From positions 5,828,001 to 5,892,000 of the forward strand of contig NW_025963891.1 in NCBI RefSeq assembly GCF_023055435.1: 64,000 nt of DNA. The letters run 5' to 3'. Below the pieces are notes generated by a model, which was given only the letters and a program-made list of their open reading frames with translations, was not told the DNA's origin and ran no database searches. Made by a program: the position numbers and the translations under genes. Of the stretch, positions 28,044-32,705 are shown piece by piece (the first letter of the stretch is position 1; each line of letters begins with the position of its first letter). This DNA comes from Haliotis rufescens. Taxonomy: Eukaryota.

Positions 28044-31000
28044 ATGTCCATAGTGCTGATCGTTAGTGTGTATCTGATACCCTTGCTGGGTTGGACAATG
28101 TCCACCCGCACCCAAGCGGAGGTACCCGGTCTGACAACCGACCCCGAGATCTACATGAACACTGTAAGTCTTTTCTCAACTAGATTTGCTCACAAGTGCG
28201 CATGCACGAACGCACACATACATGCGGAATAAAAAGTGAGGTTTCTGAATATATTTGTATTTATGTGTGTGGGTAAGACTGAACAGTAAATTTCTTTAAA
28301 AATATCCACGAACCCTAACTTGCTTTGCTCTGTATAGAACTGTCGTCACGTGCAGGTAGAATAGCCCGTGGGGATTTTGCGTTAGTACCGATGCCCGGGA
28401 CAGTATACACATAATGGTTCTTTAATACAATGTCAGTTGTCAAGAATCGATAGCAGACTCGGGGAAATTTTAAATTTTTTTTTATTTTTGGTAGTACAAA
28501 AGAGTGGCACCGCCGTCCGAGCAACATTTACTTTACAAACTTACAACAAAAAAACACTTTGAAGGAACCCCACTTCAGGAACACACTCTCCGTGAGTCTC
28601 TGACTGTTCGACTCCCTCGTTGTCCCCAGACGGAGCTGATCACCAGCAAGGGCTTCCCGTGTGAGAACCACTACGTCACTACAGAAGACGGATTCATCCT
28701 CAACATGCAGCGGATCCCTCACGGCAGGGGAGACAACTACACGGGGGCAGGTAACAGATGCCTCTTCACGTGAATTGTGTTGGGGACATGTACCAATATA
28801 TGTCTTAATGTACATTGTGTGGGCGAGCTGTGTTGCCCAGCACCAAACTGAACAAAAGGCGACCTGTGGCGCCTCCACCCTTGAAGCCCAAAACCTAACA
28901 GAGAGCAATAGTTTCGGCTCATTTAGAGGATATTACATGACTATTTCGACCAGGGTTGCAACCGAAGCCATTACTTCAAGTATCCCGTTTTGTGATGTGC
29001 GATTCAATCTCCGTGTTACCTTGATCCTTCCTGCATCACCAAGCTGTCGCAGGCCATAGTGATATAATCCTCGTCATGGGTTTGTTTCCCTCCACACGCA
29101 TTCACTCCTTGCCATTATTTGCCGGGGGTATATTTTCAGGGTGATATTTGTTCAATACACTGATGAATAATCAACAACAACGAACTAACGTCGGACTTCA
29201 TGTCCATCCGAAATATACAAGGTTATTGCTCCGTGAATAACGCGTGATTCTAGGTTCGTCAGCATCATACCGTGCACGTGGGTTTCAACAAACTGATAGA
29301 ACTGAAATAGTGTTCCAAGCGGGGTTAACCCATGTCTCTGACTCATGAATGAATGAAATGAGTCTACCCTCTGACTGAAAGATTACTTTATGTCAAATTA
29401 GTTTCAGCCAAGCCAACTGTTCTGCTGCAACATGGCCTACTAGGAAGTTCCAACAACTTCGTTCTCAACCCGGCCAACGAGAGCCTCGCTTTCATCCTGG
29501 CCGACGCCGGCGCAGACGTGTGGCTGGGCAACGTGCGCGGCAACACTTATTCACGTGCCCACAAGACGCTGAAACCATCGGACAAGAAGTTCTGGGAATG
29601 GAGGTATATATATATATTGGGAAGTATATATACACCATAGCATGTGGTGAAGCCAATACTCTCCCCAATAAAGTTTTCACGTGTAGTTATGTATAGCTAT
29701 CCAAGTTTATATTTCTCTCCGGGTATTTCAGTTTCGACGAGATGGCGAAATACGACCTGCCCGCCATGATTGACTACATCGTACAGACGACCGGGCAGCC
29801 CCAGGTCCACTATGTCGGACACTCTCAGGGGACACTAATCGGCTTCGCGGGCTTCAGTCAGAACAAGACTCTGGGTCAGCTGGTCAAGACCTTCATCGCC
29901 CTGGCCCCAATCGCGACCGTCGGGCACATCAAGAGTCCTCTCAGACTGCTGGCGCCATTTTCTGAAGGATTGAAGGTAATCCTAAATGATCGCATCTACC
30001 TATAAGATCTTACATTGATGTGCCTTTGTTATGTTGGTATAGGATTCGGATTTCGGTGCAGAGTGGCGTCCCTTGGCTGCCAGGATCCCGGGTTTGACGC
30101 GATAATGACCCTTGGTCTGTTAATACCAGACCCTTGCTCGTTTGTTTCACCAAAATTTAAAACGTCCACGGAAAAGCCAGATATATTTTTGGTGTGATCT
30201 GATCCAAACTATCCACACGGTCACGGAAATCTAGGGGTATGCATTTGTGTGACGTGATAGGTTTATAATATGGATTGCCTACGTAAACTTTCCTCCATGT
30301 TACTGTGTGTTCCATTATTTGTTTCCGCCAGTATATTCACAATGTTGCAGCTTTTTGATCTGTTCGGCCACGGCGAGTTCGAGCCCAGCAGCAACTTGAC
30401 AAAGTGGCTGGCGAAGGATGTCTGCAAGGGTCTACTCCTCCTCTGTGAGGACTTCTTCTTTGTCATCGGCGGCTTCGACTACGCCACGGTGAACAAGGTA
30501 CGTCAGCTGGTGTCCAGTAGACACGTGCACACAATTATGAAGCCATAATAAGTGGGATAGAAGGATTTTACAGTTTTCAGAAGTATTCCAGCAGTATCAA
30601 AGGTAACCAAGGATTGGCATTTTATTCCCTAAAGCACTTTCTAACAAGCTACCGTGCAAATGTACCTACATACTGCTACTGGGAGCACTGTTACATCTTC
30701 CCGCGGCAAGGGCGTCCACAGACTTTAAAAGTCCAGTGGAAACTTGACGGTTATAGTCAGTTAACACCCTTGCCACGGGAAGATGGCGCTGTTATGTCTG
30801 TTCCACTTTCAGGCCTTGTTTGTGTTTCAGACTCGCGTCCCCGTGTACGTGGCCCATACACCCTCGGGCACCTCTGTGCAGAACATGATCCACTTTGGAC
30901 AGGTAGGTGGTACCTTTTGGACAGGTAGGTGGTACACTTAGGACAGGTAGGTGGTACACTTCGGACAGGCGGGGGGTACACTTAGGAAAGGTAGGTGGTA

Positions 31001-32705
31001 CACTTAGGACAGTTAGGTGGTACACTTTGGACAGGTAGGTGGTACACTTAGGACAGTTAGGTTGAATCTTTGGACACGTAGGTGGTACACCTTGGACAGG
31101 TAGCGGGTACACCTTGGACTGGTAGCGGGTACACTTTTCACAGGTAGGTGGTACACTTAGGACAGGTAGGTAGTACACTAGGGACAGGTAGGTGGTACAC
31201 TAGGGACAGGTAGGTGATACACTAGGGACAGGTAGGTGGTACGCTTTGGACAGGCAGGTCGTACACTTCGGACAGGTAGGTGGTATACTAGGGACAGGCT
31301 GGTGGTACTCTTTGGACAGGTAGGTGGTACACTTCGGACAGGTAGGTGGTAAAATAGGGACAGGTAGGTGGTACACTTTGGACAGGCAGGTCGTACACTT
31401 CGGACAGGTAGGTGGTACACTAGGGACAGGCTGGTGGTACTCTTTGGACAGATAGGTGGTACACTTCGGACAGGTAGGTGGTAAAATAGGGACAGGTAGG
31501 TGGTACACAAGGGACAGGTAGGTGGTACACAAGGGACAGGTAGGTGGTACACAAGGGACAGGTAGGTGGTACACTTTGGACATGTAGGTGGTACACAAGG
31601 GACAGGTAGGTGGTACACTTTGGACAGGTAGGCGGTACACTTTGGACAGGTAGGTGGTACACTTTGTCTTTCTAGAACTATCATTAGTCAAGAATCTTTT
31701 TATTACCATGGCTGATGTGTGAAAAAGATGTGTGTCAAATATATTATACTGTTGAATAAAAGGGCAACTAATTTTAAGCAGCATTTAGGAAGAAGCCGCT
31801 ATAGAAACGATTATTAATGACGTTCATACATCACTGGTAGCATACAATGTCACAGATGCAATTGTCTAAAAATGTCAGTATTGGATTCACCCAGGATCAA
31901 TGACTAAGTTGCTATGGTTACTCCCCAGGAAGTCAACGGCGACCAGTTCGTGATGTACGACTTCGGCTCGGCATCTGCTAACATGGCCCACTACGGACAG
32001 GTTGGTGTTGAGGGAGTGTGTGAGTGAGTTGGGTTTAACGCACCTTGGAACAATATTTCTGTTATAAGGCGTTTCAACTTACTATTGAAGGAAAGCTCAA
32101 AGTGATGCAGGTATAGGAATTATAATGCTTTGTTGAATTCCAGAAGCACGGGAATATTATACCGACAAAGCTAGAACACAGTCAGAGCAAGTGGGATTCG
32201 AACCCAAGATCATATGAATGGGTTGATGGCGTGTGTGTGGTTGGGGTGGAGACATCGTGGTTCAGTGCGTAAAATCGCTTCATGTCATTAGAAATTAACA
32301 CCTCTCCCCTCGGGGGCTTTTTATACAAGGCCAGTGTTTGGTAACCGTTGCAGTACCATAGCAACCGTTGGACATGAAGCCGTCTGCGTCCACGTGTAGG
32401 ATGTCGTCATTGGCTTGCCTTACCCTGCAGACTCAGATGCAGTCACATACACTAAAGGGCAATGACCTCTCTTCCAGGCCACGCCACCTGCCTACCGCCC
32501 GGATGAGATGGACGTACCCGTGGTGTTGTTTACCGGAGGAAAAGACTCTCTGGCAGACCCGGATGATGTCACGTGGATCCGGTCTCAGCTGAAGAACATT
32601 GTGGGAGATCACGTGATCCCTCACTGGGAACATTTGGACTTCATTTTGGCTCTTGACGCCCCATCTCTGTGTTATAATGAGATTAAAAGACTTGTATTTA
32701 GCTGA
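28044..32705 (+). CDS. Acid lipase type B copy 1 (LIPA/LIPF family), 399 aa
   Basis: Exons 28044-28163, 28630-28750, 29408-29603, 29732-29975, 30351-30497, 30831-30902, 31929-32000, 32478-32705 sum to 1200 nt. Signal peptide [35 protein letters not shown]; all GT-AG. The exon-5 acceptor is the least certain boundary. Confidence 0.92.
30891..31664 (+). repeat. 22-bp minisatellite built from the exon-6 splice donor of lipase B1 (about 35 units)
   Basis: Unit CACTTTGGACAG|GTAGGTGGTA; the first unit overlaps the true exon/intron junction at 30902/30903. Confidence 0.95.

What the first reader, a model, noticed from the sequence alone, without database searches (positions are those of the whole stretch)
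30891..31664. A 5' splice site amplified about 35 times into an intronic minisatellite (lipase B)
Seen: the 22-bp unit is the exon-6/intron-6 junction itself (CACTTTGGACAG|GTAGGTGGTA), so the true donor is followed by dozens of near-identical CAG|GTAGGT decoys; B2 has about 28 units. 22 is not a multiple of 3, and read-through meets TAG within three units, so decoy use would truncate the enzyme before its catalytic Asp and His. Each unit also has four GG doublets (GGACAGGTAGGTGG) and an AG|GT junction. Inference: the array might be a length-tunable splicing or NMD rheostat, a recursive-splicing ladder, or be masked by two-tier G-quadruplexes. It may also be neutral.
Basis: partly seen in the sequence, partly recalled or inferred. 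Interest (0 to 1): 0.7.

Follow-up and report, generated by a model that had tools for sequence, protein, structure and literature searches.

The report
Splice-donor minisatellite in lipase intron
The end of one exon of a lipase gene, splice signal included, is copied 35 times into the next intron, but the assembled transcripts join at the first copy, so it is likely a tolerated repeat of a kind already known from human and lancelet genes.

Summary
Lipase B1 has 35 copies of a 22-bp unit spanning the exon-6 donor; 20 of the 34 extra copies keep the identical donor 9-mer. B2 has 28 units. Every decoy tested would truncate the enzyme before Asp347 and His376. The regulatory readings are not supported. 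Contigs from 5 of 6 presumed RNA runs join exon 6 to exon 7 at the first donor, and none shown joins a decoy; contigs drop rare forms. Decoy donors mutate like the rest of the unit. The G-doublets sit on the true donor too. Recursive-site motifs are rare and not shared between B1 and B2. The architecture is known: human F7 intron 7 and lancelet 'mirages'. It is common here: about 11 of 175 sampled donors carry such an array, as do paralogue A (a different unit at the same donor) and a distant lipase (two other donors). Arrays start near donors five times more often than deep in introns, without a peak on the junction. Acceptor-spanning arrays were rarer (1 of 174). The scan noted this kind before, in this genome and others. 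Verdict: new member of a known kind, likely neutral.

The parts
30831..30902 (+). Lipase B1 coding exon 6 (72 nt); its last 12 nt are the exonic part of unit 1
   Evidence: Intact ORF; both ends seen as junctions in contigs of X1, X5, X9
30891..31666 (+). 22-bp donor-spanning minisatellite, 35 units plus a 7-bp partial unit; 74% of intron 6
30900..30908 (+). True 5' splice site (cut after 30902), the one joined to exon 7
   Evidence: loose ends
31660..31666 (+). 7-bp partial unit identical to the first 7 bp of unit 1; likely the short direct repeat that seeded the duplication
   Evidence: same end in B2; seeding role is inference
31929..32000 (+). B1 exon 7 (72 nt), acceptor partner of the array's donor
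32478..32705 (+). B1 exon 8 with catalytic Asp347 and His376, lost on any decoy use
   Evidence: catalytic roles by alignment to gastric lipase and from knowledge
28044..32705 (+). Host gene B1: acid lipase of the gastric/lysosomal lipase family, 8 coding exons, 399 aa
   Evidence: 1hlg, 1k8q, 6v7n; E 1e-14 to 1e-26
49636..50258 (+). Homologous array in paralogue B2, 28 units, sharing the 21-bp step and variant units with B1
24348..24614 (+). Different 23-bp donor-spanning array at the same exon-6 donor of paralogue A2 (6 exonic + 17 intronic nt, about 11.5 units)
41989..42178 (+). Same 23-bp array in paralogue A3, shorter
12680..13056 (+). Same 23-bp array in paralogue A1, interrupted by an insert of about 170 bp

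Best explanation
This is a 22-bp minisatellite whose first unit spans the exon-6 splice donor of an acid lipase gene; the assembled transcripts join at that first donor, and the other copies are likely silent, unselected passengers. Shown: the array, its origin in the gene's own junction, its change in length since the B1/B2 duplication (35 vs 28 units), first-donor joining in contigs, and no selection signal on the decoys. Inferred origin: slippage or unequal crossover between two 7-bp direct repeats 22 nt apart, then ordinary minisatellite turnover. Inferred tolerance: the spliceosome takes the most upstream of identical donors, as shown by mutagenesis for human F7; here that is the true site, so the array costs little. 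Rare slips would give truncated enzyme and, except for B1 decoy 2, would be predicted nonsense-mediated decay targets.
For: First-donor junction in X2 and X4 and X1, X5, X9: 5 of 6 presumed RNA runs, 3 studies, 2 organism labels. All 8 loose ends are shown and none joins an array unit to exon 7. Donor core no more or less variable than the rest of the unit: 14 derived alleles over 9 positions vs 22 over 13, permutation P=0.46. Over 15 donor arrays of this genome, GT mismatch 0.076 vs 0.082 elsewhere, P=0.61; nearest decoy intact in 13 of 15, 12.5 expected. Such arrays are common: 10 of 173 donors vs 55 of 5904 random intronic positions. Both arrays end in the 7-bp partial unit. Same architecture with silent pseudo-sites in F7 (PMC1557585) and lancelet mirages (PMC3087553).
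Against: In X3 the upstream partner of exon 7 was not shown, and 16 loose ends were cut. Spliced contigs cannot be assigned to B1 or B2 (exon 6 is identical). Human 6-16 and CBS use the two nearest pseudo-sites (PMC1557585 Introduction). Array and intron-6 contigs exist in X1, so some unspliced RNA or DNA is present. The selection tests are weak: units are not independent and the arrays were found by similarity.
Confidence: 0.82

Rival explanations
1. Length-tuned leak: a share of transcripts uses array donors or keeps intron 6, is degraded, and the share grows with unit number, so array length sets lipase dose.
For: 20 decoys are identical to the true donor; all tested decoys truncate; length differs between B1 and B2. 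Precedents for VNTR length affecting splicing: TERT VNTR6-1 (PMC11830802, abstract), ABCA7 (PMC6660495, passages), nearest pseudo-sites used in 6-16 and CBS. Intron-6 contigs are present in X1 and X4.
Against: No decoy-exon 7 join among the loose ends shown. No conservation of decoy cores. About 6% of sampled donors in unrelated genes have such arrays. F7 pseudo-sites stayed silent even when strengthened. Intron-7 contigs are present too, and contig depth cannot rank them.
Confidence: 0.1
2. Recursive or dual-specific ladder: AG|GT in each unit serves first as acceptor and then as donor, so the intron is removed in steps.
For: 24 of 35 units keep AG|GT. AGGT sites in tandem repeats can serve as both site types in human UBC (PMC10809524, passages). 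Recursive sites occur in a wider range of intron sizes than first thought (PMC10156609, passages). The final mRNA would look normal, so the contigs cannot exclude it.
Against: Pyrimidine share before unit AGs is 0.40 (0.25-0.55) vs 0.55-0.80 at the gene's 7 acceptors; no CTRAY in the array. The published minimal motif Y5+N0-4YAGGT matches 3 sites in B1, one only 22 nt from the donor, and 1 in B2, at non-homologous units. The intron is only 1026 nt.
Confidence: 0.03
3. Two-tier G-quadruplexes fold over the decoys and hide them from U1.
For: Four GG doublets in 23 of 35 units; ViennaRNA places a few quadruplexes in the array. A G4-forming VNTR shifts TERT splicing (abstract).
Against: The true donor has the same GG register and is predicted the least accessible of the 35 sites; G4Hunter mean 0.62, 2% of windows reach 1.2, no three-tier motif; folding with quadruplexes is no better than shuffles (-61.5 vs -61.9 +/- 8.7); the A2 array has no two-tier motif (all).
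Confidence: 0.03
4. On origin only: this junction, or donors generally, is a specific hotspot for array birth, since lineages A and B each grew their own array at the exon-6 donor.
For: 5 of 6 paralogues have an array there, from two unrelated units; introns 6 of A and B align no better than shuffles. Donor-spanning starts are 1.0 per kb vs 0.21 deep in introns.
Against: Starts in the first 60 intronic nt are as dense (0.95 per kb; 10 vs 10, P=1.0), so there is no junction peak. At 6% per donor, 21 donors in three lineages predict about 1.3 arrays; 2 are seen, and both on one donor has a 1-in-7 chance (my arithmetic). C and the distant lipase have no array there. A shared ancestral seed of A and B cannot be excluded.
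Confidence: 0.1

Closest known systems
Human F7 intron 7 37-bp VNTR (PMC1557585; abstract, Introduction, first Results section and Discussion read)
   Same: First unit spans the exon-intron boundary, identical pseudo-donors follow, length varies, the most upstream donor is used.
   Different: 22-bp unit with 12 exonic nt (F7: 37 bp, 4 exonic); 28-35 units (F7: 5-9); a mollusc rather than a mammal; pseudo-site competence not tested here.
Human 6-16 (IFI6) intron 2, CBS intron 13, lamin B2 and PDGF intron 4 minisatellites (as summarised in the Introduction of PMC1557585; originals not read)
   Same: Donor-spanning arrays of 10-25 units.
   Different: 6-16 and CBS also use the two nearest pseudo-sites; no such use was seen here, at contig sensitivity.
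Lancelet 'mirages' in Adh3, troponin C, globins BflGb6/BflGb9, PGBD5 (PMC3087553 and PMC3902484, passages)
   Same: Minisatellite-like duplications of exon-intron boundaries, variable in length, reported not to disturb splicing, recurring across a marine invertebrate genome.
   Different: Different phylum; those reports are single genes, with no genome-wide rate in the passages seen; they include acceptor-side arrays.
TERT VNTR6-1 (PMC11830802, abstract) and ABCA7 intron 18 VNTR (PMC6660495, passages)
   Same: Intronic VNTRs whose length changes splicing; the model for the rheostat rival.
   Different: The text seen does not describe them as copies of the donor junction; their effect is shown by association and, for TERT, deletion; nothing like it is shown here.

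Membership tests
Donor-spanning minisatellite (F7 type / mirage) | First unit spans a real exon-intron boundary | tested here: met
   ORF and GT..AG structure; junction in contigs
Donor-spanning minisatellite (F7 type / mirage) | Donor reiterated in tandem in the intron | tested here: met
   20 identical decoys among 34 extra units
Donor-spanning minisatellite (F7 type / mirage) | Normal splicing at the first donor | tested here: met
   5 of 6 presumed RNA runs; dominant form only
Donor-spanning minisatellite (F7 type / mirage) | Length instability | tested here: inconclusive
   35 vs 28 units between paralogues with shared variant units; alleles not measured
Donor-spanning minisatellite (F7 type / mirage) | Pseudo-sites become active when the upstream site is destroyed | not testable with these tools
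   needs minigenes
Recursive splice sites | Pyrimidine tract plus YAG|GT (Y5+N0-4YAGGT, PMC10156609) | tested here: not met
   3 sites in B1 and 1 in B2, none shared; most units fail
Recursive splice sites | Lariat or intermediate reads at the site | not testable with these tools
   no raw total-RNA run listed; the raw runs offered were small-RNA libraries
Length-dependent splicing VNTR (TERT, ABCA7) | Isoform ratio or expression tracks allele length | not testable with these tools
   no paired genotype and RNA
Length-dependent splicing VNTR (TERT, ABCA7) | Stable RNA G-quadruplex (TERT type) | tested here: inconclusive
   prediction only: G4Hunter mean 0.62, no three-tier motif
Acid lipase family (gastric / lysosomal), host gene | GxSxG serine plus Asp and His in the conserved C-terminal motifs | tested here: met

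The most novel reading that the evidence does not exclude
The array is a weak, unselected dosage dial: with 20 perfect decoys a few percent of transcripts slip to them and are destroyed, more with longer alleles. As about 6% of donors in this genome carry such arrays, and far fewer acceptors do, the genome would hold thousands of length-variable splicing dials and serve as a natural test of first-come donor choice outside mammals.
Probability: 0.12. Interest if true: 0.55.

Novelty: new member of a known kind. Interest (0 to 1): 0.17.

Why it matters
The single array matters little: the kind is in print and common in this genome. The useful by-product is the rate. About 6% of sampled donors but under about 2% of acceptors carry junction-spanning arrays. 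That fits tolerance of donor copies (first site wins) and purging of acceptor copies, and it can be tested genome-wide with annotation. The A/B/C lipases also give a natural series at one junction (no array, 23-bp array, 22-bp array) for minigene work on donor choice.

Tried and rejected
Run search: no RNA holder listed on record; runs laid are guessed RNA, contigs only. Contig depths of introns 6 and 7 were not used to rank retention, as the tool says they cannot. Holes in intron-6 cover (X2) prove nothing. The fixed 22-bp walk slipped at the 21-bp unit; its unit counts were discarded and redone (its stop positions hold). Mobile or dispersed origin of the unit rejected: it holds the gene's own coding end and TRF finds it only in B1 and B2 in the window; no genome-wide search for the unit was run. 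Assembly artefact rejected: array contigs occur in runs X1, X5 and X15, one spanning exon 6 into the array. Common origin of the A and B arrays: no alignment above shuffles. Junction-specific hotspot: not supported. One of 12 candidate donor arrays (C146) was dropped because no junction copy was found. Paper searches for a mollusc or genome-wide survey listed none by title or abstract start; the library lacks most subscription journals and no supplements were read.

Full report
Setting. The window is G000:C113:5828001-5892000 in a 1.33-Gb genome; a search with exon 4 found six close lipase paralogues, all in the window, and one distant one. Exons 4 and 8 match gastric and lysosomal acid lipases. 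B1 joins into a 399-aa ORF of 8 coding exons; B2, A1, A2 and A3 are intact too. The label 'abalone' comes from earlier notes of this scan and was not tested here.

Observation. Confirmed. The array is 30891-31666, 35.3 copies of 22 bp; unit 1 is 12 exonic plus 10 intronic nt. 21 of 35 units have the identical donor 9-mer and 27 keep GT; B2 has 21 and 25 of 28. Decoy 2 of B1 gives 324 aa with the stop 19 nt before the last junction, which by the usual 50-nt rule (from knowledge) would escape decay; later decoys give 312 aa. The three B2 decoys tested give 305 aa. Asp347 and His376 are lost in all.

Origin. Both arrays end in a 7-bp partial unit equal to the start of unit 1, the pattern expected if slippage between short direct repeats seeded them (model recalled, not from a call). 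B1 and B2 share the 21-bp step and several variant units, so the array predates their duplication and has gained and lost units since; their flanking introns are 96-99% identical. A contig of run X15 (organism D, kind not on record) runs from intron 5 through exon 6 into the array, so it exists outside this assembly.

RNA. On 31670-33100, contigs of X2 and X4 carry the exon-6 end directly before exon 7; X1 and X3 break at that point; 16 loose ends were not shown. On 30791-30956, contigs of X1, X5 and X9 join exon 5, exon 6 and exon 7 at the first donor; all 8 loose ends are shown and none leads from an array unit into exon 7; array contigs continue as array. That is 5 of 6 presumed RNA runs, from 3 studies. 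Limits: contigs drop rare forms, the RNA label is a guess, decay would hide decoy products, and B1 and B2 cannot be told apart in spliced contigs. Intron-6 contigs of both B1 and B2 type are present in X1 and X3, as unspliced RNA or DNA.

Selection. The donor core has 14 derived alleles over 9 positions, the rest 22 over 13 (P=0.46). Over 15 donor arrays (16 examined, 1 dropped) GT mismatch was 0.076 vs 0.082 (P=0.61); the nearest decoy was intact in 13 of 15, and 14 of 15 had a decoy scoring as well as the true site. Decoys are neither kept nor purged, within the low power of these tests.

Quadruplex and recursive readings. The true donor carries the same four GG doublets and is predicted the least accessible site; G4Hunter mean is 0.62; no three-tier motif; A2's array has no two-tier motif. 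Unit AGs have 40% pyrimidines upstream vs 55-80% at real acceptors, with no CTRAY. The minimal recursive motif of PMC10156609 (passages) matches 3 B1 sites and 1 B2 site, none shared.

Beyond the finding. Paralogues A1-A3 carry a different, 23-bp array at the same donor; C has none. Introns 6 of A, B and C align no better than shuffles, so the amplifications look separate. The distant lipase has two more donor arrays, 28 bp x 112 and 68 bp x 31.5, at other donors.

Base rate. From 581 Pfam matches of five families I chose 229 exon-sized ones, leaving out long single-exon matches, most tandem clusters and duplicates, and fetched 151 loci (665,664 bases, 173 arrays). Junctions were predicted with rough recalled weights, not verified by RNA, and several exons share a gene. 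The donor 16-mer was the first unit of an array in 10 of 173 donors, vs 55 of 5904 random and 20 of 1208 donor-like intronic positions; acceptors 0 of 174. By array edges, starts per kb were 1.00 spanning the donor, 0.95 in the first 60 intronic nt and 0.21 beyond 237 nt; spanning arrays were 10 of 175 donors vs 1 of 174 acceptors, P=0.011. The two lists give 12 cases, 11 after one drop. One search shows up to three more doubtful acceptor cases, which would weaken the asymmetry, and earlier notes describe acceptor arrays in this genome. So arrays crowd near donors without a junction peak, and two arrays among 21 donors of lineages A, B and C is near the 1.3 expected.

Known systems. Human F7 intron 7 has this architecture, and mutagenesis showed the pseudo-sites competent but silent, the most upstream site winning (PMC1557585: abstract, Introduction, first Results section, Discussion). 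Its Introduction lists 6-16, CBS, lamin B2 and PDGF; the first two use two nearby pseudo-sites. Lancelet mirages are the invertebrate case (PMC3087553, PMC3902484, passages). TERT (abstract), ABCA7 (passages) and UBC (passages) support the rivals in principle. Searches listed no mollusc survey. The scan's notes hold 41 findings with these words in at least 22 genomes and several in this genome; none near this place.

Verdict. Real, a new member of a known kind, likely neutral (0.82). A small length-dependent leak is not excluded (0.10-0.12). Interest 0.17.

Noticed in passing
window 24348-24614, 41989-42178, 12680-13056: A separate 23-bp donor-spanning array sits at the same exon-6 donor in A1, A2 and A3; degenerate donor-like copies continue towards the acceptor in these short introns.
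   Followed up: yes
L152 9563 to L153 2705, and L153 4902-7018 (G000:C445): The distant lipase has two donor-spanning arrays: 28 bp x 112 filling nearly all of one intron, and 68 bp x 31.5 with 28 perfect CAG|GTAAGT sites at an intron the window's genes lack. Perfect-consensus pseudo-sites did compete in F7, so this is a better place to look for decoy use.
   Followed up: partly
window exons 2 and 4 vs 5-7 of A2, B1 and C: Exons 2 and 4 are 94-99% identical across A, B and C while exons 5-7 are 63-81%; exon 8 is 90% between A and B but 72-73% to C. This looks like exon-wise gene conversion of the core with a diverging cap region.
   Followed up: partly
window 52262-52376: Exon 1 of paralogue C is 115 nt from its ATG, out of frame by one base; a pseudogene, another start, or a homopolymer error.
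   Followed up: no
window 30891-30912 and 31989-32010: The exon-6 and exon-7 junctions of B match at 17 of 22 positions, and A and B end exon 6 in HFGQ where C and the distant lipase have HFAQ; conversion between the two junctions is possible but untested.
   Followed up: no
window 9698-63890: The cluster looks like three tandem copies of an A-B-C cassette with losses (A1; A2-B1; A3-B2-C), from shared flanks.
   Followed up: partly
window 23420, 41085, 11726, 53730: GC-AG introns: intron 4 in A1-A3 and intron 3 in C.
   Followed up: no
window 30902: Recalled, from no call: this junction appears homologous to the end of human LIPA exon 8 (72 nt), where the common disease splice variant lies.
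   Followed up: no
L001-L151: Arrays also end within 60 nt before acceptors more often than deep in introns (8 vs 2.2 expected) but seldom cross them.
   Followed up: partly
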